NCBI GenBank assembly: GCA_036679605.1
Contig: JAZDCZ010000085.1
Span: 1-64,000, forward strand
DNA length: 64,000 nucleotides
Origin: Gemmatimonadota bacterium
GTDB taxonomy: Bacteria; Gemmatimonadota; Gemmatimonadetes; Gemmatimonadales; GWC2-71-9
Direction of reading: 5' to 3'
The notes beneath the pieces are model-generated. The model was given only the letters and a program-made list of their open reading frames with translations. It searched no databases and had not been told where the DNA came from. Both the position numbers and the translations under genes were made by a program. Below, piece after piece: positions 10,686 through 22,779 of the stretch. Each line of letters begins with the position of its first letter. Position 1 is the first letter of the stretch.

Positions 10686-12923
10686 ATGGAAGTCGATTTC
10701 GGGGTACGTGTGTCTTCGTTGGGCCTGGAACGTGTACTACGCGCGGCTGTACTCGGACCGCAAGATGTGGATTGGACCCCGCCATCATGGCTCAAGCAAC
10801 ACCAAGTGAATGCCGTTCGCCGCGTACTTGCCAGCCTCCGAGCCTTCCACGGCGCCCTGTTGGCTGATGCTGTGGGATTGGGAAAAACATATGAGGCGCT
10901 AGCCGTTGCCACCGTCTACGACTCTGCTCTGGCAGTCGTTCCTGCGGCTTTACGCTCTCAGTGGATACGGGTGAGCAAAGAGTTGGGCGTCAAAATCCGG
11001 CTGCTAACACATGAAGCGCTGAGCCGGGGCCATCGCGTACCCGAGTTCCCGCTGATTATCGTAGACGAAGCGCATCGTCTACGGAATCAAAAAACGCGCC
11101 GGTATGATGCTTTGGCCCGGGGTGTCAAAAGTTCGCATCTGTTGCTTCTCACTGCTACGCCTGTCGTGAACAGTGGCACCGATATTGTAAACCTGCTACG
11201 CCTGTTCGCAACGGACCACTCGTTTGCCCTACTCGGCCTTCCTTCATTAGAGCGAGCGCTTCTACGCCGCGGGTACCAGGACATAGCCTATGCCACGGCA
11301 CCGGTAGTGATCGCCAGATCTGCTCAGAATATCGGAGAAATTCAGCAAGAGCTGCCCAAGGTATCTGATCGAAACGTCATTCGCCCACTCCCACTTCCGG
11401 CTAAACAACTCCGATCTCTCCTGAGCACGATCGATCAACTCAGTTTCCCTTCCTTGAATGGTTCCCCAGAATCGAGCTTGTTGCGTCTACACCTCCTTTA
11501 TCGACTTGCCTCTTCGCCTGTCGCATTCCACGACACTGTCAGGAAGCACCTCTTATACCTCGATCGTGCGCTCGATGCATCACATCGAGGGGAGACTCTG
11601 TCACGTGCCGCTGTTCGCCTATTGTTCCCCTCCGAGGATGAGCTTCAACTGGAATTGCGCGACCTTCCCGGATCTTCCACTTCGCTGCAACTCGATCCCT
11701 CGGTCCTCGAACGGGAACAGCGCCGCCTCCGACACGTGCTGCTAGTACTCGCCAGAGTAAACGGGCAAGCTCCTAAGGCTGCCGCATTGAGCGATATTCT
11801 AGCCACCCGCAACGGATGCAAGACCGTCGTATTCACCTGCGCGGTGGCGACGGCGCTCGACTTGGCACGTAGGTTGAAGTGGCGAGAAGTTGCAGTTGTC
11901 GGTGCTGGTCGTGCATGGATTGCGTCGGGGCCGATCAGCTTGGATGAGGCGCTCAATTTGTTTGCCCCTAAGGCACGCAAGGCCAACCGGCCGCCACGCG
12001 CTGCAACGGTCACCACACTCATCGCTACAGACGTGGCAAGTGAAGGGCTGGACCTCCAAGATGCCGACGCGGTGATACACTATGACTTGCCATGGACTCC
12101 CCTCAGGCTGGAGCAGAGAGTCGGCCGAATTGCCCGGCTTGGTTCTGATCACCGAACGGTAGAGGTGCGATGGTTCGCGCCCCCCAGGTCTATCGAGAGA
12201 CGACTCGGTGTCGAAGCGAGGATCGCACGCAAGGTTCAATGTCAGCTTGGGTTGAGTGTAGCTACCACAAGCCGGGTTGGCCGAGCCGGCATCGTAAATG
12301 ATATGCTACACCGTCGCGAAACTCTCGGTGTGAATGCCGTGCAGACTCCGTACGCCAAGCCGCGTCATGCCGTAGTTCACGGCCCACTCAGCGCCGCAAT
12401 AGCATTGCAATGGATAGGTAGGGGGAAAGCAGTTCCCGAACTAGTAATTCTGGCTGGTGATCCTCCGATTCCCGTTTACGACTACGCAACGGCAGAGGAA
12501 TTCCTTTCACGTCTTGTGCGCTCCGACCCGAGCGCAGTTGATCCACCCAGACCCCTTATCGTCGCTCTCGACGGACTGATACGTAAGAGACTTGCCGGCA
12601 CGACCCGCGGCCCTACGAATCAAGCAAATCGGAGACTCGCACGCATAATTGTGCGGCGTGCCTTTGCAGCAGGCCGTCGAAGGGACACTCAAACTCTCAG
12701 TTTGCTCGATGCTCTCCTGGATCGAGTAGGAGAGGGGTCGGCGGCTGGTGCCGAACGAGAACTAGGAGATATTCTGAGACAGTCTATTTCACAATCGCGG
12801 GTGAGTCATTGGATACATTGTCATCCGGCGTCTGCTAACTCGCTCGCCAGAATGGAAATCCTGGGCGCTATTTTCGGTGACGGCACTGTAGATCAACCAA
12901 TGACTACGTGCAGACCCAGGTAG
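10686..12923 (+). CDS. SNF2-like SF2 helicase/translocase
   Basis: Motifs I LLADAVGLGKT, II DEAH, III TAT, V ATDVASEGLDLQ, VI EQRVGRIARLG. Start uncertain (ATG 10554, ATG 10686 or a nearby GTG). Confidence 0.85.
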   Translation: MEVDFGVRVSSLGLERVLRAAVLGPQDVDWTPPSWLKQHQVNAVRRVLASLRAFHGALLADAVGLGKTYEALAVATVYDSALAVVPAALRSQWIRVSKELGVKIRLLTHEALSRGHRVPEFPLIIVDEAHRLRNQKTRRYDALARGVKSSHLLLLTATPVVNSGTDIVNLLRLFATDHSFALLGLPSLERALLRRGYQDIAYATAPVVIARSAQNIGEIQQELPKVSDRNVIRPLPLPAKQLRSLLSTIDQLSFPSLNGSPESSLLRLHLLYRLASSPVAFHDTVRKHLLYLDRALDASHRGETLSRAAVRLLFPSEDELQLELRDLPGSSTSLQLDPSVLEREQRRLRHVLLVLARVNGQAPKAAALSDILATRNGCKTVVFTCAVATALDLARRLKWREVAVVGAGRAWIASGPISLDEALNLFAPKARKANRPPRAATVTTLIATDVASEGLDLQDADAVIHYDLPWTPLRLEQRVGRIARLGSDHRTVEVRWFAPPRSIERRLGVEARIARKVQCQLGLSVATTSRVGRAGIVNDMLHRRETLGVNAVQTPYAKPRHAVVHGPLSAAIALQWIGRGKAVPELVILAGDPPIPVYDYATAEEFLSRLVRSDPSAVDPPRPLIVALDGLIRKRLAGTTRGPTNQANRRLARIIVRRAFAAGRRRDTQTLSLLDALLDRVGEGSAAGAERELGDILRQSISQSRVSHWIHCHPASANSLARMEILGAIFGDGTVDQPMTTCRPR

Positions 12924-13927
12924 CAGATGCCGGCAATCATTGCCGACGCCGGAATAGTCAGGATCCAGGCCCAGACAAGCCGGCCTGCAACTCCCCATCG
13001 AACCGCCGAGAGCCTGCGAGTTGCACCTACTCCCACGATAGAACCTGTTATCGTGTGGGTCGTGCTAACCGGGATACCTAAGAACGAGGCGACAAAGATT
13101 GACATCGCACCGCCCGTCTCGGCGCAGAATCCGTGCACCGGTTTCAACTTCGTGAGGCGTGAACCCATGGTCTTGATGATGCGCCACCCTCCCGCCATCG
13201 TACCGGCCGCAATGGCGCTATAGGCAGTGACGATGATCCAGAGTGGAATCTCCTCGAGCGTTGTCACGTGGAGGGCTCGAACCGGAAAATTCTCAAACTG
13301 CGCCTGGGATGCAAACAAAAGTCCAACAATGATGCCCATCGTCTTTTGGGCATCGTTACTACCGTGACTCAGGCTATACGCGGCAGCAGAGACCAATTGT
13401 AGCTTCCGGAAATATTTGTCCACCGATCGCGGTGTCGCGCGACGGAACGTCCACGCCACAGCTACCATGAGCGACAGTCCTAGAAATCCTCCCAAGAATG
13501 GCGCTACCAGAATAAAAATGAGGGGCTTCACCCATCCCGCCAGAATGAGAGATCCGATACCCGCCTTCGCCACTGCCGCCCCACCATAGCCACCGATCAG
13601 CGCGTGCGAGGAACTCGATGGAATACCATAGTGCCACGTGATGAGGTCCCAAGCGATCGCGCCAATCAAAGCTGCCAATACGACCAACGAGTCGACAATC
13701 GATATATCTATCAGTCCGCTGCCGACAGTCTTGGCCACGGCTGTCCCGAATATGAAAACGGCGGCAAAATTGAAAAAGGCCGCCCACGTGACTGCGGCCA
13801 GTGGCGAGAGAACTCGTGTGGATACTACTGTTGCGATGCTGTTGGCAGCGTCATGAAAACCATTTATGAAATCGAAGCAGAACGCGACGGCGACGATCGC
13901 AATAATGAACCAGACGCTATCTATCAT
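12893..13927 (-). CDS. pitA: PiT-family inorganic phosphate transporter
   Basis: NGFHDAANSIAT and HGSNDAQKTMG signatures; PVSTTH. Confidence 0.93.
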   Translation of the reverse strand: MIDSVWFIIAIVAVAFCFDFINGFHDAANSIATVVSTRVLSPLAAVTWAAFFNFAAVFIFGTAVAKTVGSGLIDISIVDSLVVLAALIGAIAWDLITWHYGIPSSSSHALIGGYGGAAVAKAGIGSLILAGWVKPLIFILVAPFLGGFLGLSLMVAVAWTFRRATPRSVDKYFRKLQLVSAAAYSLSHGSNDAQKTMGIIVGLLFASQAQFENFPVRALHVTTLEEIPLWIIVTAYSAIAAGTMAGGWRIIKTMGSRLTKLKPVHGFCAETGGAMSIFVASFLGIPVSTTHTITGSIVGVGATRRLSAVRWGVAGRLVWAWILTIPASAMIAGICYLGLHVVIG

Positions 13928-14541
13928 TAGGCGTTCTTGAGCGAGATAGACTCTATGTCGTTCGCGACATCCTCCGCTTCGTCAATGGTGGTCTCGAGAT
14001 TGTCGAAGATCTCCTTCCACTTGATGATCTCAATCGGGTCGGTTTCCGTGTCAAACAGCCTACCCAGCATCTGCTGATAGATCGAGTCTCCTTCTTCCTC
14101 CAACCGCTTCGCCTCTATGCAGTGTGACATCACATCTTTGTTCTTGCGCAGGAGCCCTACACCCTCCTTGATTTCTGCTGTGATCTTTCCGATGATCTCG
14201 CAGAGTTCCTTCACACCCTTCGGAGCCGGCCCGAGTTTGAAAACTTGCGCACGACGGGCCGTACCGTCTATTCGATCTATGACATCATCGAGATCGCTTG
14301 CGAGTAGGTGGATATCTTCCCTGTCAATTGGTGTAATGAATGTGCGATCGAGACGATTCACCACCTCGTGGGTGATGTCGTCGGCTTCATGCTCGAGACG
14401 TTTGATCGCCTCTGCGCAATAGGCCACCCGCACTGGTCCGCCCACCAGCATGTCGAGCAAATGGCCCGCTGCTTCGTGAGAAAGCGATGCTACCTCAACA
14501 AACAGATCGAAGAACTCCTCTTCCCGCGGAAGTAAACGCAC
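13927..14541 (-). CDS. DUF47 (PhoU-like) PiT accessory protein
   Basis: EHEADDI...FITPIDREDI...LDDVID and EEEGD motifs; coupled to pitA. Confidence 0.92.
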   Translation of the reverse strand: MRLLPREEEFFDLFVEVASLSHEAAGHLLDMLVGGPVRVAYCAEAIKRLEHEADDITHEVVNRLDRTFITPIDREDIHLLASDLDDVIDRIDGTARRAQVFKLGPAPKGVKELCEIIGKITAEIKEGVGLLRKNKDVMSHCIEAKRLEEEGDSIYQQMLGRLFDTETDPIEIIKWKEIFDNLETTIDEAEDVANDIESISLKNA

Positions 14542-14582
14542 TGATTCTTCTCCTATAGATGATCTACTTCAGTGAATCCTGA

Positions 14583-15269
14583 CTATGCTGTTGTAGTAGG
14601 TAGCTCTTTTTCATCATAATAATCCAGCTTGTGCAGGGGCATCACAACGCTCGACAGTATGTTTAGAACGTGCGCGCCAATTCGCTTGTAGAATCGCGTT
14701 CCCAGTACCAGTGATGTTGCAGTACACGCGCCATGGCCACTCTGAGCGATCTTCTCGACAAGCACGTCACAACGGTGCGCAAGATCTTGGCCCTGTCGAA
14801 TAAGTTCAATTGCACGCTCGATGTCGGATTCTTCGAAAACATCGGATGTCACATCGAACGCAGACTCGACACCAGACCGAATCTCCCTAAGCTCGGCGAC
14901 CAGATCATCGTCGGGCAGGGGGCCGGAACAGAGATCTGTCACCTCCGTGAGGTTCTTGGCGTAATCACCCAATCGCTCGACATCCTTGACCAAGCTCATG
15001 AGAAGGAGACAGTACGGCAAGTCGGCCGAGTTACGACTAATCGACAGATGCGCTATGACCTGTTTACGAATTGCCCGCTCCAGCTTGTTGACCTTGACAT
15101 CCTGCTTGTAGATCCAGGTTCGCTCTTCCGGGCTCACCTCCTTACCGAAGTACACTTCGCCTGCCTTCAACGTGGTCTCGTGTGTGAGTCTAAGCATCTG
15201 GGAAAAGTTCTCGCCCATCGCACTCAGAGGTTCATCGGATCGGAGAATATTGAGTAAATGTTTCAGCAT
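14583..15269 (-). CDS. PhoU-domain protein
   Basis: D..VNKLER and KDVERLGDYAKN PhoU repeat motifs. Confidence 0.85.
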   Translation of the reverse strand: MLKHLLNILRSDEPLSAMGENFSQMLRLTHETTLKAGEVYFGKEVSPEERTWIYKQDVKVNKLERAIRKQVIAHLSISRNSADLPYCLLLMSLVKDVERLGDYAKNLTEVTDLCSGPLPDDDLVAELREIRSGVESAFDVTSDVFEESDIERAIELIRQGQDLAHRCDVLVEKIAQSGHGACTATSLVLGTRFYKRIGAHVLNILSSVVMPLHKLDYYDEKELPTTTA

Positions 15270-15282
15270 CGGTACCTCAGGA

Positions 15283-16458
15283 CTACTTCAAGAGTCTGTT
15301 CAAGGCGGCAAAGATCGCGGGCAGACCGTAGAATAGCACGGCCACATAGATGAGCGCCCACCGACGTGACCGCACCGCGGTATCTGCAAGCCACCTGGCG
15401 GCGGAGAGCGGAACATTCCGTATGGTCTTGACTGGAAAGATCAACAAAGTGCCACTGATATTGAAGAGCAGGTGCACCAGAGCGATCGTGATCCCCGCCT
15501 GGGCATTTTCCCCCGTGACGGCAAGCGCCGCCAAGAAGGCCGTGATAGTCGTTCCAATATTCGCACCGATCGTGATCGGGAACGCCTGAGACAAGGTGAG
15601 AAGCCCCGCACCGGCCAATGGAACCAGAAGCGATGTGGTGATCGAGCTGGACTGCACCATTACCGTCACCACCGCTCCCAGAAGCATCGCCAGTAACACC
15701 TGCCGTTCCAGAGCCCCTGATATCAGTTTCTCGACTCGTGACTCCATCGACGATCGCATCACCCGAACGATGAACCAGAGAGCAACGAAAATCAGCACGC
15801 CACTGATTGCAATGAGAACGATTGGCACGACACCGTCGGGAACTACCGCAGCAATCGCGGCCTTGACGGGTTTGAGTGCGGCCTTGAGAGCGCCTTTGAT
15901 TGGGCTGTCGTACTTTACCCCCCCCACACCGGTCACAAGAGACGAGAGTGCCGTGGCCATGCGCCGCAAATAGCCCGTCCACAGTTCCAGCGGCAGCAGT
16001 ACCGCAACCGCAATGAAGTTGAAAAAATCGTGGCAGGTGGCCACCGCGAAGGCCCGCCTGAATTCCTCCTTCCGCCCCATATGGGCTAGAGAGACGATGG
16101 TGTTGGTCACCGTCGTACCGATATTCGCTCCCATGATCATCGGCACCGCGTTGATCACGGGTAGTGGATTGTCGGGTGCCGCCACCAGACCGACAATCAG
16201 CGACGTGGTGACGGAAGAACTCTGAACCAATGTCGTAGCGAGGATACCGACCATGAGACCCATGAATGGGTTCTCGGTTGCGGTAAAGAATGAATCAAGG
16301 ACTCCCCGACCCAGCGATTTGAACCCGTCGCCCAGACCGTTTACGCCAAGCAGGAAAATGAATAAAAGCGCGAGAACCGCCAACGCTTGTACAAGCGGGT
16401 GGGCAGCAAGAAAAGTTGTAGTTCTCGAAGGCGGTGTCGAACCACCTGTCATCAACAC
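15283..16458 (-). CDS. nptA: Na+/phosphate cotransporter (NptA/SLC34 family)
   Basis: Two QSSS repeats, each followed by GANIGTT. Confidence 0.9.
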   Translation of the reverse strand: MLMTGGSTPPSRTTTFLAAHPLVQALAVLALLFIFLLGVNGLGDGFKSLGRGVLDSFFTATENPFMGLMVGILATTLVQSSSVTTSLIVGLVAAPDNPLPVINAVPMIMGANIGTTVTNTIVSLAHMGRKEEFRRAFAVATCHDFFNFIAVAVLLPLELWTGYLRRMATALSSLVTGVGGVKYDSPIKGALKAALKPVKAAIAAVVPDGVVPIVLIAISGVLIFVALWFIVRVMRSSMESRVEKLISGALERQVLLAMLLGAVVTVMVQSSSITTSLLVPLAGAGLLTLSQAFPITIGANIGTTITAFLAALAVTGENAQAGITIALVHLLFNISGTLLIFPVKTIRNVPLSAARWLADTAVRSRRWALIYVAVLFYGLPAIFAALNRLLK

Positions 16459-16571
16459 ACTCGACGGTGAGTGATCAAACTCTTCAGACCCCTTAGGGGA
16501 GCTGTTTGGGAGGCAATCTCACGGATACCGTCTGCTAACGCAAGGCTACGACTTCACATAGGGCCTATCAC

Positions 16572-16615
16572 TTGCCGTTACGGATCTTCGGGATATATTC
16601 GGTATTATGACCGAA
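16572..16615 (+). promoter_or_regulatory. Candidate promoter and operator of the mutagenesis operon
   Basis: TTGCCG-16 nt-TATATT ending 7 nt before ATG 16607; inverted repeat TTCGGT-N6-ACCGAA (16598-16615) over the start codon. Confidence 0.5.
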
Positions 16616-16768
16616 CGTACTCAGGAAACGGCTTCTAGCCACCCTCGGCCTCCAGGCCATCCCCACCCCCCGGAAGCCACTCAGCGTTGCCCTGAATGTG
16701 GCGGACCTGTATTCGCAGCTTCGGGGTGTTTCCATTGTCACTTCTGCGGCTGGGGACGATGCGGATAG
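16607..16768 (+). CDS. 53-aa zinc-ribbon mini-protein (not in the ORF track)
   Basis: Hand translation MTERTQETASSHPRPPGHPHPPEATQRCPECGGPVFAASGCFHCHFCGWGRCG*; resembles the C-terminal Zn ribbon of class II ribonucleotide reductases. Confidence 0.75.
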   Translation: MTERTQETASSHPRPPGHPHPPEATQRCPECGGPVFAASGCFHCHFCGWGRCG

Positions 16769-18024
16769 CCGAGACTAGCAAAGACCGTGGAAGCGGAAAT
16801 CGAGAACTGTTTAGCAGCACAGCCGTTTGTATCTGGATTCCTTTGTTCGCTCTCCGTTGTGAAATCATTCGCCGGCCCACGCATGTGCAACGTCCCACGG
16901 CTTTACTTTCATCGAGCGACACAAGACGACTCTGGCAGGTATCATCTCTTGCCAGACGTGCCGGTGTAAAAGCTGCAATGACCGTGAATCAAGCCATCGG
17001 ACTGTGTCCGACTCTAACGCTCTATGAGCCTGATCCGGTTTTCTACGATGAGCGCTTCTCCCACATCATCATGGAACTGGGCAATGTGAGCCCCGTCATC
17101 GAGCCTGTTGAGTTGGGACATACATATGTAGGAGTAGATGGACTAGAGACATTGTTTGGTTCACCCAAGAAGCAGCTAGAAACCATTGTTAGTGCAATCT
17201 CATCTGAATGGTCTAGTACAATGCGCTTGGGTTGGGGAAGGGGAAAGTTTGTCGCTTGGGTCGCAGCCACCAGAGCTGAGCCGGGTGGCGCGACAATCGT
17301 CCTCGACAAGGAACGAAAAGCATTCCTCGCTTCTCAGCCAGTTGCCGTATTGCAAATAGACGCCGACACACATCGCAGGGTTCGGCAGCTCGGCCTCAAA
17401 ACTTTACGAGATGTTGCACGCCTGCCGGAAATCGCCGTCATATCACAATTTGGCAACGAGGGGCGCCGCATCTGGCAATTGGCAACGGGTACACTTTCTG
17501 AGCCAGTTGTCGGTCGGGAGACACCCGATCCTATCGTATCGAAAATTCATTTTCCCAACCCGGTAGCCGACAAAACGATGCTCATCCATGCACTCGATCG
17601 ATTGATCGATCGAACGCTACGTCATCCACGACGTATCGGTTGGCGTGTTCTCGAGGTGCTCGTACGCGCAAAGCAAGAGCATGGTAGCTCATGGATGATA
17701 CGCGCGACGTTAAAGGAGCCATCCGCTGACCGGCAACATATAGCCGCACCGTTACGAGTACGTCTCGAGCAAATCCCACCGACAGGGGCTATAGAAGATC
17801 TCACTGTTGAGTTTGTTTCATTTGCTCGTGGCACCACCGAACTCCAACTCTTTGCTCGCGATGCCAATAGTGCAGCGCGAGCCGGCCGGCAACGTGCTCT
17901 ACGTTACGCAGTAAGAGAAATCAGACTCCGTGTCAGACGTTCCAGCCTTTATCACGTCGTCGAGGTACAACCATGGTCCCGCATCCCAGAGCGCCGCTAC
18001 GCGCTGATCGACTACGACCCTTAA
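16759..18024 (+). CDS. imuB: ImuB-like inactive Y-family DNA polymerase
   Basis: Y-family fold motifs (ARRAGVKAAM..QAIGLCP, LGLKTLRDV) but catalytic acidic residues absent (VCIWIPLF; EPVELGHTYVG); ELQLF candidate clamp motif; upstream of dnaE2. Start uncertain. Confidence 0.85.
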   Translation: MRIAETSKDRGSGNRELFSSTAVCIWIPLFALRCEIIRRPTHVQRPTALLSSSDTRRLWQVSSLARRAGVKAAMTVNQAIGLCPTLTLYEPDPVFYDERFSHIIMELGNVSPVIEPVELGHTYVGVDGLETLFGSPKKQLETIVSAISSEWSSTMRLGWGRGKFVAWVAATRAEPGGATIVLDKERKAFLASQPVAVLQIDADTHRRVRQLGLKTLRDVARLPEIAVISQFGNEGRRIWQLATGTLSEPVVGRETPDPIVSKIHFPNPVADKTMLIHALDRLIDRTLRHPRRIGWRVLEVLVRAKQEHGSSWMIRATLKEPSADRQHIAAPLRVRLEQIPPTGAIEDLTVEFVSFARGTTELQLFARDANSAARAGRQRALRYAVREIRLRVRRSSLYHVVEVQPWSRIPERRYALIDYDP

Positions 18025-18257
18025 ATCTGCCGCAACCAGTGAAAGTCGTTCTAGATAAACTCGATCTACCAAGTGCGATCGAAGAAAATGGCATCCGTAA
18101 AACAGTGGATGCAATCATAGACACGTGGCGAATAGATGATGAGTGGTGGAGAGAGCCGATTGCGCGACGATACGTGGAAGTTGTTTTGAACGATGGAGGA
18201 CATGTGGTCCTATATGAGGACTTGACGAACCATGCGTGGTTCTTGCAAATGCCGTAG
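17973..18257 (+). CDS. Small conserved protein of imuB-dnaE2 operons (DUF6504-like)
   Basis: RLRPLNLPQPV...WRIDDEWWREPIARRYVEV...W pattern, resembling the C-terminal domain of longer ImuB proteins. Confidence 0.75.
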   Translation: MVPHPRAPLRADRLRPLNLPQPVKVVLDKLDLPSAIEENGIRKTVDAIIDTWRIDDEWWREPIARRYVEVVLNDGGHVVLYEDLTNHAWFLQMP

Positions 18258-18274
18258 AGTAGCTGACCGTAGAA

Positions 18275-21200
18275 ATGCCCTTGCCCAACCCCGTGTATAT
18301 AGAACTGCACTGTCATTCCGCGTTCTCGTTTCTCGATGGTTCCTCACTGCCAGAGCAACTGGTTTTAGAAGCCCAGTCAATAGGATATCCTGCTCTAGCA
18401 CTCACCGACAACAACGGCCTATACGGTTCGATGATATTCGCTCAAGCCGCTCGACAACTGGGGCTGCAGGCAATTACTGGTGCAGAACTCACATTGCTCG
18501 ACGGTTCACATATAACCCTCCTTGTAGAAACCCAACGCGGTTATGCCAATCTGTGTCGTCTTATCACTGAGGCACACCTGGAACAGGATGACAGGCACGA
18601 TCCACGGCTCGATTTTGCATCTTTGGAACAACGCCACGACGGATTGATCGTTCTGTCCGGCTGCCGTAATGGCCTCCTATCTCGTGTTCTAGAACGAGAG
18701 GGATTGGCAACGGCCCACCGATTCGCCGAACGTTGCGGCAAAGTCTTCGGCCGTGACAATTTCTTCGTGGAGTTGCAGCGCAATGCCGTACGGGGAGACA
18801 GGACGTTAACCAGAACACTGGCGGCGATTGCGGATACGGCTGGTTTACATGTCGTTGCTACTGGGAATGTTCACTACCATCGGCGGGAGCAATACCGGCT
18901 ACACGATGCGTTGGTAGCAATCAAACATCGCTCCACGCTCGACACTTCCCATTCGTTTCGCCGGCCCAATAGCGAATTCTATCTACGCCCACCCGCTGAA
19001 GTGGCCGCCATTTTTCATGACCGACCAGATGCCATAGCCAACACGCTCGTCATTGCTGAGCGATGTGCATCTTTCGACCTGACTAGAGATTTGGGATATA
19101 CCTTTCCGGATTTTCAAAAGTCCGACAAGCTAACTGCCATCCAAGCACTGACTGAACTCTGCAGCGTTAAGCTAGAGGAATTCTATCCGCCAGGTTCGCC
19201 AAACCGGTTTGAGGCGGAACAGCGATTGAAGGAAGAGTTACGTCTAATAGAACATCACGATCTCTGTGGATTTTTTCTGGTATATAGGGATCTGCTAGAA
19301 CTGGCCCGTGAGGTAGCCGCCGATATCCGAAGTGGCACTAGGAGAATCAGAGGCAATCTGCTCCCGGGGCGAGGACGTGGCTCGTCTGTGTCTTCAATCG
19401 TCTGTTATTTCCTCGGACTCTCGCATATCGACCCCGTCGTCAATCAACTCTTCCTCGGTCGTTTTCTCAATGAGACACTGGCATCGATACCGGATATCGA
19501 TCTCGATTTCCCACGGGAGATACGTGAGGAGTTGATTCGGCGAGTATACCAAAAATACGGTAGTGAGCACGTCGGTTTGGTCTGTTCATTCCCGACTTAT
19601 CGACTGAAGTCGGCGGTGCGGGAACTAGGCAAGGCACTCGACCTACCGCAGGGAGAATTGGAACAGGTTACTCGCTTGGCAGGATCGCGATCCGCTAAGG
19701 CACTACGTGAAGAACTTCAGAACCTGCCGAGTTTCGCCGAACGGGTAGACGCACCACTCTGGCGAGAACTGTGTACCTTGGCCGAAGATATAGCGGGATT
19801 GCCGCGCCACATATCGCAGCATGTCGGCGGTATGATAATATCGAGTTGCCCTTTGGTCGAGCTGGTTCCTTTGGAACGAGCTGCCATGCCCGACCGAGTA
19901 ATCTGCCAATGGGACAAGGATTCTTGCGATGACGCACGTTTCGTAAAAATAGATTTCCTAGCACTCGGCATGCTCTCGTTGGTCGAAGAGTGCGTGGAGT
20001 TGATCGCACGAAGAGAAGGTCACCCTCCCGATCTCAGTCGAATAAATTTCGACGACACCGCTGTTTACGACCAGATATGTAGCGGTGACACTGTGGGGCT
20101 CTTTCAAATCGAGAGTCGCGCTCAGATCCAAATGATTCGTCGGACGAGACCTCGCAACTTGGAGGATCTCGCGATCGAAGTCGCCATAGTCCGGCCCGGT
20201 CCAATCGTCGGTGGTGCAGTAAATCCTTACGTACGTCGACGCGAGGCTCAGCGCGCAGCCAAGTCACACAATGTTCTTTACGAACCGCCGGTAGATCATC
20301 CTCTACTCAAGAAAGCCCTGGCAGAAACCTTGGGAGTAGTCATCTATCAGGATCAGGTGCTACAAGTCTGCCAGGCCTTGGCCGGATTCACAGCAGGGCA
20401 GGCGGAGGCTCTACGTCGGGCGATGAGTCGGCGACGTTCACGTGAATTGATGGAGGCATTCTGGCAGGAATTCCGCAGCGGTGCTGCTGAACACGGAGTC
20501 AACGAAGACACGGCACAGAGGGTGTTTGAGCAAGTGGTTGCCTTTTCAGAATTCGGTTTTCCTAAATCACACGCGGCAGCATTTGGATTACTCGCCTATC
20601 AATCTGCTTGGCTCCGTCACTACTACCCAGTGGAGTATTACACCGGCCTCTTCAACAACCAGCCGATGGGTTTCTATTCACTGGATGCGTTGGCTAGGGA
20701 TGCGGCACGGCACGGCGTTCAGGTTCAACTGCCCGACATCAATAGAAGTGATGTTCACTGCACAGTCGAAGGTGGGTCGATTCGCATTGGCTTTGGATTC
20801 ATACGAGAGTGTGGACTGAAAGTCGCCGAAGAAGTTGTCGTCGAACGCGAACGACATGGTTGTTATTCCAGTCTCTCCGATTTTGTACGGCGAGCACCGC
20901 CGCAACTCTCACGTAACGCCATCGAGAACCTCGTGTGGGTCGGAGGATGTGATTCGTTCGGACTCACGCGCCGGGAACTGTTATGGCAGGTGGGACTATT
21001 GCTTCCGCCCAAGAATGGACACCCTGATCGACATCGAGTACGACGGCAATTGGAACTGCCACTCAATCACCCTTATGAGAACCTGCGATTTGGCGATGTC
21101 CCATCGGACGAACGAGTCTTGGCAGAATATCAGGTTCTGGGATTCGCAGCCAACAGTCATCCATTCATTTTATTGGGCGAGGCGTTACCCGCCGGAATCG

Positions 21201-21583
21201 TAAAGAGCGATAGGCTGGAAAATTTAGAGCACAACTCTGTCGTAGAGGTTGCTGGTTTGGTCGTAGCACGGCAGCGACCTTCGACTGCGAAGGGAACCAT
21301 CTTTATTCTGTTGGAGGACGAGACCGGAATGATCAACGCGATCGTCCGGCCAGACCTTTATGACCGCAACCGACTCGCTATCCGCGGGGAACCCTTCCTT
21401 TGGATTTCTGGAAAGTTGGCTAAAGACGATAGGACCGTAAATGTCATCGCCGAACAAGTTAGGGCGTTGAAGCTTCGCCATCCCCGAGAACTAACCACGA
21501 CTTCTACCGGAGCCTCTAATTCACCTTATTCTTTTCTGAAACAACTCCGGAGATCTGCACCGAAATCTAAGAATTGGGGCTAA
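18275..21583 (+). CDS. dnaE2: Error-prone DNA polymerase DnaE2 (ImuC)
   Basis: PHP domain ELHCHSAFSFLDG, catalytic PDIDLDF and KIDFL, SQHVGG, FGFPKSHAAAF, OB-fold RQRPSTAKG. Confidence 0.95.
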   Translation: MPLPNPVYIELHCHSAFSFLDGSSLPEQLVLEAQSIGYPALALTDNNGLYGSMIFAQAARQLGLQAITGAELTLLDGSHITLLVETQRGYANLCRLITEAHLEQDDRHDPRLDFASLEQRHDGLIVLSGCRNGLLSRVLEREGLATAHRFAERCGKVFGRDNFFVELQRNAVRGDRTLTRTLAAIADTAGLHVVATGNVHYHRREQYRLHDALVAIKHRSTLDTSHSFRRPNSEFYLRPPAEVAAIFHDRPDAIANTLVIAERCASFDLTRDLGYTFPDFQKSDKLTAIQALTELCSVKLEEFYPPGSPNRFEAEQRLKEELRLIEHHDLCGFFLVYRDLLELAREVAADIRSGTRRIRGNLLPGRGRGSSVSSIVCYFLGLSHIDPVVNQLFLGRFLNETLASIPDIDLDFPREIREELIRRVYQKYGSEHVGLVCSFPTYRLKSAVRELGKALDLPQGELEQVTRLAGSRSAKALREELQNLPSFAERVDAPLWRELCTLAEDIAGLPRHISQHVGGMIISSCPLVELVPLERAAMPDRVICQWDKDSCDDARFVKIDFLALGMLSLVEECVELIARREGHPPDLSRINFDDTAVYDQICSGDTVGLFQIESRAQIQMIRRTRPRNLEDLAIEVAIVRPGPIVGGAVNPYVRRREAQRAAKSHNVLYEPPVDHPLLKKALAETLGVVIYQDQVLQVCQALAGFTAGQAEALRRAMSRRRSRELMEAFWQEFRSGAAEHGVNEDTAQRVFEQVVAFSEFGFPKSHAAAFGLLAYQSAWLRHYYPVEYYTGLFNNQPMGFYSLDALARDAARHGVQVQLPDINRSDVHCTVEGGSIRIGFGFIRECGLKVAEEVVVERERHGCYSSLSDFVRRAPPQLSRNAIENLVWVGGCDSFGLTRRELLWQVGLLLPPKNGHPDRHRVRRQLELPLNHPYENLRFGDVPSDERVLAEYQVLGFAANSHPFILLGEALPAGIVKSDRLENLEHNSVVEVAGLVVARQRPSTAKGTIFILLEDETGMINAIVRPDLYDRNRLAIRGEPFLWISGKLAKDDRTVNVIAEQVRALKLRHPRELTTTSTGASNSPYSFLKQLRRSAPKSKNWG

Positions 21584-22779
21584 ATGGGTACAGGCAAGCC
21601 TTTGGAGCGCAGGATATTTTCTATCGCCTCACCAATCTTGTTGTTCGGCGTGGAGGCACCCGCTGTGATCCCGATAACGCGAATCGACTCGTCCAGCCAC
21701 GCGGCCTTCTTCACTTCGTCGGTAGAATCTGCCGGCTTATAGTTAATCGAACCAGATTCGACATCGATGCAACAAGCATCGGATATATGGTAGGTCACTC
21801 TCTTCTTCGCGCAGATCTTAGCCAGATGATTGGTGTTGCTCGAGTTGTAGCCGCCAATTACGACCATTGCATCGAGATCTCCGTCTATTAGATCGACAAC
21901 GGCATCCTGCCGCTCCTGTGTGGCCGAACAGATCGTATCAAAAGAACGGAAATGGTCAGCTAGATTCTCAGACCCGTAACGTGCCACCATCGACTTTCCT
22001 ATCCGGTTTGCAATGGCAAGTGACTCCGAAGCCAACATTGTAGTCTGGTTAGCGATACCAACCCTCACCAGATCTCTCCGAAATTTGAACCCGGGAGATA
22101 CTTGCCTCTCGAATTGCGTCTCGAGCGCTTGTGTCTCACCGTCATCTTCGATGAACCGGCAAACGACTTCGGCCTCGGCCATGTTCCGGACAATGATATA
22201 CTGCCCGCCCTCGTACTTCGTCACCTGGCTGGCCGTGGCTTTGGTTTCCTCGTGGAAATACTTGCCATGAACCACGGCTGTGAATCCGTCCCTGGCGTAT
22301 CGTTCCACGCGCTTCCACACATTCAGGACCGATCCACAGGTGGTATCGACGAGAACGCAGCCAAGTTCGTGCAGGTACTTGAAGTCCTCGACCTTGACTC
22401 CAAAGGCTGGAATGAGCACAACATCATCTCGAGTGATTCCCGAAAAATCGAAGCTTCCATCACCGTGCTGACGAATGACCGTCACTCCCATGTCCTGTAG
22501 TTTGCTATTCACATGAGGGTTGTGGATTATCTCGCCTATTAGATACACCGGTTGGTCGGGGAACTTCCTACGGGTTTCGTATGCATACTCCACGGCTCGG
22601 TCTACGCCATAGCAGAAACCGAACTCCTTCGCGAGCCGAAATGTCAGGTCGCCAACGGTTAGTTCATACTCGTTGTTCCGGATGTGGTCTACCAGCTGAC
22701 TGTGGTAGTCCTCGGTGAGCGTGTCCGCTATGGCCTGCTTGAGACCGAACCCCTTACGAAAATAGGTCTGTTCCATCAT
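21580..22779 (-). CDS. ispH: 4-hydroxy-3-methylbut-2-enyl diphosphate reductase
   Basis: FGFCYGV, IIHNP, DTTC, NQTT, TICSATQERQ, SSNT, TAGASTP. Confidence 0.96.
   Translation of the reverse strand: MMEQTYFRKGFGLKQAIADTLTEDYHSQLVDHIRNNEYELTVGDLTFRLAKEFGFCYGVDRAVEYAYETRRKFPDQPVYLIGEIIHNPHVNSKLQDMGVTVIRQHGDGSFDFSGITRDDVVLIPAFGVKVEDFKYLHELGCVLVDTTCGSVLNVWKRVERYARDGFTAVVHGKYFHEETKATASQVTKYEGGQYIIVRNMAEAEVVCRFIEDDGETQALETQFERQVSPGFKFRRDLVRVGIANQTTMLASESLAIANRIGKSMVARYGSENLADHFRSFDTICSATQERQDAVVDLIDGDLDAMVVIGGYNSSNTNHLAKICAKKRVTYHISDACCIDVESGSINYKPADSTDEVKKAAWLDESIRVIGITAGASTPNNKIGEAIENILRSKGLPVPI

What the first reader, a model, noticed from the sequence alone, without database searches (positions are those of the whole stretch)
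16607..21583. ImuA-less mutasome operon led by an unannotated zinc-ribbon mini-protein
Seen: the operon is [53-aa CPECGG...SGCFHCHFCGWGRCG]-imuB-[94-aa DUF6504-like]-dnaE2. The mini-ORF stop overlaps the probable imuB start, and no RecA-like imuA is present. Established: the canonical cassette is imuA-imuB-dnaE2, and ImuA/ImuA' is required for mutagenesis in Caulobacter and Mycobacterium. The Cys pattern recalls the C-terminal Zn ribbon of NrdJ-type ribonucleotide reductases. Inference: a variant translesion system in which a free Zn-ribbon peptide replaces or regulates the ImuA role, possibly as a redox or metal sensor or a link to dNTP supply. This is my best candidate for an undescribed system here.
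Basis: partly seen in the sequence, partly recalled or inferred. Interest (0 to 1): 0.8.

Follow-up and report, generated by a model that had tools for sequence, protein, structure and literature searches.

The report
SOS-boxed six-cysteine microprotein, partner gene deleted
This conserved 53-residue cysteine-rich gene of Gemmatimonadales normally sits in front of a radical-SAM enzyme gene and likely supplies that enzyme with iron or electrons after DNA damage; here the enzyme gene is deleted, which leaves the small gene next to an already described ImuA-less error-prone polymerase cassette.

Summary
The operon is as described, but the interpretation mostly fails. The 53-aa ORF is a real, selected coding sequence: a free copy of the six-cysteine finger that ends class II ribonucleotide reductase (NrdJ). 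It does not replace ImuA. It co-occurs with imuA in 11 of 12 genomes of a sister family, and ImuA-less cassettes exist without it. In 55 of 57 relative copies its downstream neighbour is an Rv2578c/PA0069-like radical-SAM gene. That gene is deleted here: a roughly 95%-identical relative carries it as 1005 extra bases at the mini-ORF/imuB junction. The imuB start that overlaps the mini-ORF is the deleted gene's start codon. The cassette is the published inactive-PolY + standalone ImuB-C + DnaE2 (+RecA) type. A TTCGG-N6-TTCGG repeat over the promoter also precedes lexA (30 of 30 loci) and recA (29 of 30), so it is likely the order's LexA box; my searches found no paper on it. Best mechanism (about 0.4): an SOS-induced, Dph3-like metal or electron helper of the radical-SAM enzyme, orphaned in this genome. 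Main rival: a trans-acting modulator of NrdJ. Translation, metal binding and partner are untested.

The parts
16572..16599 (+). Predicted sigma-70-type promoter (TTGCCG-16-TATATT). The mini-ORF ATG lies 7-8 nt after the -10, so the mRNA is probably leaderless.
   Evidence: the only site in 16400-16900; shuffles 0.2 +/- 0.4. Consensus match only.
16587..16602 (+). Predicted LexA operator TTCGG-N6-TTCGG overlapping the -10 element
   Evidence: Identical 16-mer upstream of recA in this genome; two copies upstream of lexA in 30 of 30 loci and one upstream of recA in 29 of 30. Binding untested.
16607..16768 (+). 53-aa microprotein: variable Pro-rich N-terminus plus a 26-aa six-cysteine finger homologous to the NrdJ C-terminal zinc finger
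16759..16794 (+). Deletion scar: start codon and first codons of the lost radical-SAM gene, now in frame with imuB
   Evidence: Contig of run X3 has 1005 other letters between 16775 and 16795 that lay on the G001 radical-SAM gene; no other in-frame ATG/GTG/TTG before the conserved VCxW motif.
16759..18024 (+). Inactive Y-family polymerase (ImuB core, iPolY) with clamp motif QLF and a RecA-NT-like C-terminal helix; no fused ImuB-C
   Evidence: DinB SIDEF aligns with ELGHT; motif names recalled and taken from PMC6511836
17973..18257 (+). Standalone ImuB-C protein (94 aa)
   Evidence: hhalign against the fused C-terminal domain of canonical ImuB from relatives: probability 94.3%, E 9.9e-8, 80 columns
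18275..21583 (+). DnaE2 error-prone polymerase; convergent with ispH/lytB

Best explanation
The 53-aa gene encodes a free-standing copy of the NrdJ six-cysteine finger that is likely induced by DNA damage through a predicted LexA operator and likely serves as a small iron or electron helper of the radical-SAM enzyme whose gene follows it in relatives; in this genome that gene is deleted, which placed the small gene directly before a known iPolY-ImuB-C-DnaE2 cassette in which RecA is predicted to take ImuA's place. Shown: the gene order, the deletion, purifying selection, homology to the NrdJ finger, absence of imuA, and the operator's presence at lexA and recA. Inferred: LexA binding and derepression after damage; leaderless translation; a four-cysteine metal site (Cys28/31/44/47) plus a redox pair (Cys41/52), by analogy with NrdJ; metal or electron delivery to the [4Fe-4S] cluster, by analogy with yeast Dph3; translational coupling, which now drives iPolY. 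I hold the architecture and deletion at about 0.9 and the helper function at about 0.4.
For: The radical-SAM gene (best hits NF038135 Rv2578c E 2.5e-60 and NF033668 PA0069 E 6.6e-60, both below their cut-offs) starts within 330 nt of the finger's stop in 55 of 57 copies. An in-frame start codon overlaps the finger's last 10 nt in 43 of those 55. Converse test on 80 radical-SAM loci: a finger lies within 700 nt upstream in 24 of 29 Gemmatimonadales, 9 of 13 unassigned Gemmatimonadota, 1 of 16 Gemmatimonadaceae and 0 of 22 others; 33 of these 34 keep all six Cys. In family f1, 57 of 60 finger-positive genomes hold the enzyme against 7 of 17 finger-negative ones. Deletion shown by run X3; run X4, from another study, has the deleted form. 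The Cys spacing 3-10-3-3-5 matches the NrdJ array C920-C945 (3-10-3-3-6), where four Cys are modelled as Zn ligands and all six are needed for electron delivery (PMC5704485, section read). The AlphaFold model is a three-strand ribbon with Cys41 and Cys52 on strands 2 and 3 (pLDDT 80.7). Dph3 donates Fe to a radical-SAM cluster, and its authors expect Dph3-like helpers for other such enzymes (PMC8251694, abstract).
Against: The enzyme occurs without the finger in most Gemmatimonadaceae, in Acidobacteria and in G023, G032, G035, G068 and G092, so the finger is at most accessory. The finger stays intact without the enzyme in G000, G170, G063, G040 and possibly G090, which lies near a contig end. 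That fits an independent function, although the loss in G000 is recent. Neighbouring genes are deleted together and kin are not independent, so the co-occurrence figures overstate functional linkage. No fusion of finger and enzyme was seen: the finger is within 4 aa of the C-terminus in 139 of the best 150 hits. Similar free fingers occur in phages beside methyltransferase-like and terminase-like genes, not radical-SAM genes (neighbours judged by eye). The enzymes show no conserved Cys beyond CxxxCxxC. No translation, metal or binding data.
Confidence: 0.42

Rival explanations
1. The free finger acts in trans on the cell's NrdJ during SOS, either as an extra shuttle for active-site re-reduction that raises dNTP supply for translesion synthesis, or as a decoy for NrdJ's unknown reductant.
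For: Direct homology and the same six-Cys layout. NrdJ is the only class I/II large subunit found in G000, and no true class I small subunit passes the cut-off (class III not searched). The finger survives loss of the radical-SAM gene in 4-5 genomes. Electron transfer between NrdJ subunits is documented (PMC5704485).
Against: The separately expressed NrdJ C-terminal domain did not restore TCEP-dependent activity to the truncated enzyme (PMC5704485, section 9). The free fingers carry S-G-C and W-G-R where the resident NrdJ tail has E-G-C and Y-S-E. Finger-bearing genes were not seen next to nrdJ. The tight coupling to the radical-SAM start is left unexplained.
Confidence: 0.2
2. An autonomous SOS-induced thiol/zinc buffer or generic zinc-ribbon adaptor with no dedicated partner, of the kind also carried by phages.
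For: 123 of the best 150 library hits are proteins of at most 110 aa with the same spacing. Phage copies sit in variable gene slots. Monocistronic box-plus-finger units exist (L190, L192).
Against: A fixed 26-aa length with the stop directly after it in 64 of 64 copies, and conserved non-Cys residues (Pro, Ser, Trp at 90% or more), suggest a specific contact surface.
Confidence: 0.17
3. A cis-acting leader ORF whose translation couples, and perhaps senses Cys or metal for, the downstream gene; the peptide itself does little.
For: First ORF after the operator in 63 of 64 copies; stop/start overlap in 43 of 55; the N-terminus is free to vary (34-85 aa).
Against: A folded finger with exact NrdJ spacing under protein-level selection (pN/pS 0.37 in frame, above 1 in the other two frames). 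Retained where a convergent gene follows (L190). No start overlap in 12 of 55.
Confidence: 0.08
4. The peptide is the substrate (RiPP precursor, SCIFF/ranthipeptide-like) of the neighbouring radical-SAM enzyme.
For: A small Cys-rich ORF with a variable N-terminus directly before a radical-SAM gene. The resemblance to six-Cys precursors is recalled.
Against: The enzyme is a 330-aa Rv2578c/PA0069-like protein with only the CxxxCxxC cysteines, so no auxiliary-cluster Cys. It is under the SOS-like box and occurs widely without the peptide. The conserved part is a recognisable NrdJ finger.
Confidence: 0.05
5. One reading: the peptide replaces or regulates ImuA in the mutasome.
For: It is co-transcribed and overlapped with iPolY here, and no imuA was found in any of 43 genomes with this iPolY type.
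Against: It co-occurs with imuA in 11 of 12 family-f3 genomes. It is adjacent to imuB in only 1 of 30 loci, while 18 of the 30 have their own operator directly before iPolY. It is absent from at least four genomes with the ImuA-less cassette. iPolY keeps a RecA-NT-like helix. The adjacency is a deletion product.
Confidence: 0.04

Closest known systems
DnaE2X-iPolY-ImuB-C-RecA putative mutasome (Kyrpidia tusciae type; PMC6511836, PMC12926913; standalone ImuB-C in PMC3765255)
   Same: Inactive Y-family gene, standalone ImuB-C and dnaE2 in one operon, no imuA in the genome, RecA-NT-like motif in iPolY.
   Different: Here it is led by a six-Cys microprotein and uses the start codon of a deleted radical-SAM gene. 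DnaE2X membership was not tested by tree.
C-terminal six-cysteine zinc finger of class II ribonucleotide reductase NrdJ / NrdJb (PMC5704485, PMC9669993)
   Same: Six Cys with near-identical spacing at the very C-terminus; HMM match to NF006417 positions 725-759; ribbon fold predicted.
   Different: Only the last 26 residues stand alone, without the IscU-like part of the 150-220-aa domain that NrdJb keeps. The gene is not beside nrdJ and lies under an SOS-like operator.
SOS-regulated SplB-like radical-SAM genes (COG1533; Rv2578c/PA0069 families) in mutagenesis cassettes (PMC8565304, PMC3765255)
   Same: In relatives the same kind of gene lies under the operator, upstream of imuA-imuB-dnaE2 or iPolY-ImuB-C-dnaE2.
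   Different: A coupled upstream microprotein is not mentioned in the passages I read; the gene is missing from this genome.
Dph3/Kti11 small Cys-finger iron and electron donor to radical-SAM Dph1-Dph2 (PMC8251694)
   Same: A small Cys4 metal finger proposed as helper of a radical-SAM enzyme: a functional analogy only.
   Different: No homology shown; eukaryotic; four Cys rather than six; the function here is untested.
Direct-repeat LexA box GTTC-N7-GTTC of Alphaproteobacteria (PMC8565304, introduction)
   Same: Direct repeat with an 11-bp period and TTC half-sites, found at lexA, recA and mutagenesis genes.
   Different: Half-site is TTCGG with a free first base; predicted for Gemmatimonadales, where my searches found no description.

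Membership tests
Canonical ImuA-ImuB-DnaE2 mutasome | RecA-like imuA gene in the cassette or genome | tested here: not met
   only RecA; genome 96.5% complete
Canonical ImuA-ImuB-DnaE2 mutasome | ImuB with ImuB-C fused at its C-terminus | tested here: not met
   ImuB-C is a separate ORF
iPolY + ImuB-C + DnaE2 (+RecA) system | Catalytically dead Y-family polymerase | tested here: met
   DinB SIDEF aligns with ELGHT; IMS hit
iPolY + ImuB-C + DnaE2 (+RecA) system | Standalone ImuB-C and dnaE2 in the operon, no imuA | tested here: met
iPolY + ImuB-C + DnaE2 (+RecA) system | RecA-NT motif in iPolY | tested here: inconclusive
   Conserved helix after QLF in 18 listed relatives resembles the RecA N-terminus by eye; not scored with a profile
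iPolY + ImuB-C + DnaE2 (+RecA) system | DnaE2 falls in the DnaE2X clade | not tested
   no tree built
[quoted passage not shown] | Array of six conserved C-terminal cysteines | tested here: met
   33 of 34 fingers found via the radical-SAM gene keep six Cys
[quoted passage not shown] | 150-220-aa domain with IscU-like part, fused or adjacent to the catalytic NrdJ | tested here: not met
   34-85-aa proteins; the genome's NrdJ is complete, on contig C89
[quoted passage not shown] | Binds Zn and transfers electrons | not testable with these tools
   model is compatible; fold search gave only weak ribbon-type matches, best Z 3.2
LexA regulon member | Operator shared with lexA and recA, overlapping the promoter | tested here: met
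   (reversed-pattern control 1 of 30 and 0 of 30; downstream control 0 of 60)
LexA regulon member | LexA binds the site and damage induces the gene | not testable with these tools
   no RNA holder listed
Dph3-like radical-SAM helper | Fe binding, contact with the enzyme and cluster reduction or repair | not testable with these tools
   no complex model obtained; genetic linkage only
SCIFF/ranthipeptide precursor | Partner radical-SAM enzyme with auxiliary-cluster (SPASM) cysteines | tested here: not met
   only three invariant Cys in 53 enzymes; single Radical_SAM Pfam hit

The most novel reading that the evidence does not exclude
Gemmatimonadales turned the redox tail of ribonucleotide reductase into a free, SOS-induced microprotein that keeps a radical-SAM DNA-repair enzyme active in air by donating iron or electrons: a bacterial Dph3 analogue, under a LexA box not yet described for this phylum.
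Probability: 0.3. Interest if true: 0.72.

Novelty: new variant of a known kind. Interest (0 to 1): 0.45.

Why it matters
The mutasome itself is a known type and its link to the peptide is an accident of deletion. What remains of value is threefold. First, an unannotated microprotein family present in most genomes of two Gemmatimonadales families, with no specific Pfam family and a strong tie to an SOS radical-SAM gene. If it is a metal or electron helper, it would supply the kind of bacterial Dph3-like factor that was predicted, and a handle on the uncharacterised Rv2578c/PA0069-like enzymes. If it acts on NrdJ instead, it bears on the open question of how NrdJ's six-Cys finger is reduced. 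Second, a precise predicted LexA operator for Gemmatimonadales that makes the phylum's SOS regulon mappable. Third, a caught-in-progress operon deletion that fused a start codon to a new gene.

Tried and rejected
Expression: no RNA holder listed. Word-based protein searches with the 53-aa protein found nothing, near or longer, and are too insensitive to count. The ESM Atlas gave unnamed clusters at 0.92-0.93 with recognition below its threshold, a weak lead only. The fold search gave generic ribbon and Rieske-loop matches, none at Z 5 or more. PDB sequence searches gave only generic zinc fingers for the finger and nothing for the enzyme profile, so I could not map the SplB active-site Cys. Rfam: nothing in 16000-22000. 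Assembly artefact rejected: a contig of X1 (possibly the source sample) spans the junction unchanged, and X4 from another study also lacks the insert. A programmed frameshift fusing finger and enzyme was considered, because the enzyme frame is open across the finger in 42 of 55; it is rejected as a general rule since that frame is closed in 13 and the finger always ends in a stop. The apparent N-terminal motif MxEQxP is better read as a second, inverted operator (CCGAA-N6-CCGAA) over the first codons. A distant radical-SAM paralogue on contig C148 (24% identical, no operator) is not the orthologue. My automatic gene maps of intervening genes were spoiled by shadow ORFs and were used only for marker genes. 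Literature: searches found no paper on this microprotein or on a Gemmatimonadota LexA motif. The library lacks most subscription papers, and PMC1326238 was not held.
Full report
Observation. The window holds a 53-aa ORF (16607-16768) whose stop overlaps an ATG at 16759, followed by a 421-aa Y-family ORF, a 94-aa ORF and dnaE2. The last 26 residues carry six cysteines and match the end of class II ribonucleotide reductase (NF006417, E 4.1e-7) and the tail of the genome's own, complete NrdJ on contig C89. Three searches for imuA return RecA as the only strong hit. Record titles of related loci place the lineage in Gemmatimonadota, mostly Gemmatimonadales.

The small ORF is a gene. A search of 151 related genomes found short-frame copies besides the NrdJ tails. 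I fetched 60 of the best-scoring short-frame places and scanned them with 8 imuB loci. This gave 64 copies in 63 of 68 loci; two NrdJ tails were dropped, and three loci were missed by the pattern, two of which do hold a normal copy. All 64 have a 26-aa core followed at once by a stop. Third codon positions vary twice as much as first and second; pN/pS is 0.37 in frame and above 1 in the other frames; window against same-genus G001 gives pS 0.76 and pN 0.06. My pattern required six Cys, so their invariance in that set is circular. The independent set, found through the neighbouring gene, keeps six Cys in 33 of 34. N-termini vary freely, 34-85 aa. The profile scores short-frame copies far above NrdJ tails in most genomes of families f1 and f3, and finds essentially only NrdJ tails in family f2 and further out. 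No specific Pfam family covers it, only generic zinc ribbons. Free fingers of like spacing exist elsewhere: 123 of the best 150 library hits are 110 aa or shorter, some in phages.

Its real neighbour. In 55 of 57 relative copies the next gene is a radical-SAM enzyme closest to the Rv2578c and PA0069 families, below both cut-offs. In 43 of the 55 a start codon in the enzyme's frame overlaps the finger's last 10 nt. Conversely, of 80 enzyme loci, 34 have a finger within 700 nt: 24 of 29 titled Gemmatimonadales, 9 of 13 Gemmatimonadota, 1 of 16 Gemmatimonadaceae and 0 of 22 others. Two more have it further upstream; overlap with the G-handle genomes was not removed. I searched all 17 finger-negative f1 genomes and 60 of its 108 finger-positive ones: the enzyme is in 7 of 17 and 57 of 60. 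Three of those 7 are cut by contig ends upstream.

The deletion. G000 lacks the enzyme. G001 has finger, enzyme, iPolY, ImuB-C, dnaE2 in that order. A contig of run X3, about 95% identical to the window in imuB, has 1005 other letters between 16775 and 16795, and those letters lay on the G001 enzyme gene. Run X4, from a different study, shows the deleted form with an 18-nt shorter junction; X1, possibly the source, matches the window. The ATG at 16759 is therefore the enzyme's old start, and it is the only ATG/GTG/TTG in frame before iPolY's conserved N-terminal motif.

Not an ImuA substitute. The finger abuts imuB in 1 of 30 imuB loci. Eighteen have an operator directly before imuB, 10 have the enzyme or its tail there (read partly by eye), and 1 is truncated. 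In family f3 the order is finger, enzyme, imuA, imuB, dnaE2 (12 of 57 copies). ImuA is in 12 of 12 f3 genomes tested and a finger in 11 of them. None of the 43 genomes with the window's iPolY type has an ImuA-level hit, though 4 of them lack even a RecA hit and are incomplete. G032, G035, G062 and G072 have that iPolY type and no finger. The Y-family protein has lost the DinB catalytic acids and ends in a clamp motif and a RecA-NT-like helix. The 94-aa protein is homologous to the fused C-terminal domain of f3 ImuB (probability 94%) and has no Pfam hit. This is the ImuA-less system described in PMC6511836 (passages read; supplement searched for three names) and called DnaE2X-iPolY-ImuB-C-RecA in PMC12926913 (passages), with standalone ImuB-C from PMC3765255 (passages). 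Two earlier AI notes on other genomes reached the same reading of the cassette; they are not independent evidence.

Regulation. A TTCGG-N6-TTCGG repeat (16587-16602) overlaps the -10 of the only predicted promoter. The same repeat, or its inverse, precedes 63 of 64 fingers, occurs twice before lexA in 30 of 30 loci and before recA in 29 of 30, with controls at 1 of 30, 0 of 30 and 0 of 60. Its 11-bp period resembles the alphaproteobacterial GTTC-N7-GTTC box (PMC8565304, passages). I infer a LexA operator; binding and induction are untested. Searches found no description for this phylum, in a library that lacks most subscription papers.

Mechanism. In NrdJ the six-Cys array is modelled as four Zn ligands plus a redox pair, all six are needed for electron delivery, and the isolated domain did not complement in trans (PMC5704485, passages and section 9; PMC9669993, passages). 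The finger keeps all six, and its model is a three-strand ribbon. Given coupling to a [4Fe-4S] enzyme, I favour an accessory iron or electron donor like Dph3 (PMC8251694, abstract and opening), at 0.42. Against this, the enzyme occurs without the finger in other families, and intact fingers remain without the enzyme in G000, G170, G063, G040 and perhaps G090. The loss in G000 is recent, so retention there says little; the age of the others is unknown. Rivals are action on NrdJ (0.2), an autonomous thiol or zinc role (0.17), a leader ORF (0.08), a RiPP precursor (0.05) and ImuA replacement (0.04). No complex model, expression data or metal data were obtained. PMC3919608 (passages) added only that DnaE2 occurs in Gemmatimonadetes.

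Verdict. The mutasome is a known type and its link to the peptide is a deletion by-product. The peptide family and the operator are real and were not found in my literature searches. New variant of a known kind; interest 0.45.

Noticed in passing
G000:C332:131996-132022 and G000:C319:169029; L240-L299: TTCGG-N6-TTCGG occurs twice before lexA in 30 of 30 loci and before recA in 29 of 30. A stricter pattern gives 130 matches in 61 genomes of the phylum against 3 for the reversed control. Likely the Gemmatimonadales LexA box.
   Followed up: yes
L160-L181 (mostly Acidobacteriota-titled records): A relaxed form of the same repeat lies upstream of the radical-SAM gene in all 22 non-Gemmatimonadota-titled loci; no control was run.
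   Followed up: no
L202-L235 (viral contigs, mostly one dataset): Free six-Cys fingers of 45-60 aa sit in a variable slot among methyltransferase-like, nuclease-like and terminase-like genes; one viral NrdJ (L236) ends in a similar finger. Neighbours were judged by eye.
   Followed up: partly
window 16777-16797, run X4: A related strain lacking the radical-SAM gene has a junction 18 nt shorter and still in frame, so either further trimming or an independent deletion.
   Followed up: partly
L051 (G070:C1:9156 and 14393): Two copies of operator plus finger 5.2 kb apart with identical finger sequence; only the second is followed by the radical-SAM gene.
   Followed up: no
L128:4821: One finger is frameshifted after its fourth Cys while the radical-SAM gene follows; it may be a sequence error or decay.
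   Followed up: no
G000:C148:6990-7943: Distant radical-SAM paralogue beside a ParB-like ORF (by eye); possibly mobile or contaminant DNA.
   Followed up: partly
family f3 versus f1 genomes: Sister families use different mutasomes behind the same finger and radical-SAM genes: imuA-imuB-dnaE2 in 12 of 12 f3 genomes, ImuA-less iPolY-ImuB-C-dnaE2 in 43 f1 genomes. Some other f1 loci have a DinB-like gene there instead (weak imuB hits; not checked).
   Followed up: partly
window 12893-16458 (-) and 21580-22779 (-): Phosphate-transport genes (Na/Pi cotransporter, PhoU-domain protein, PiT-like transporter by eye) diverge from the operon and ispH converges on it. The Na/Pi neighbour recurs in five relative loci.
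   Followed up: no
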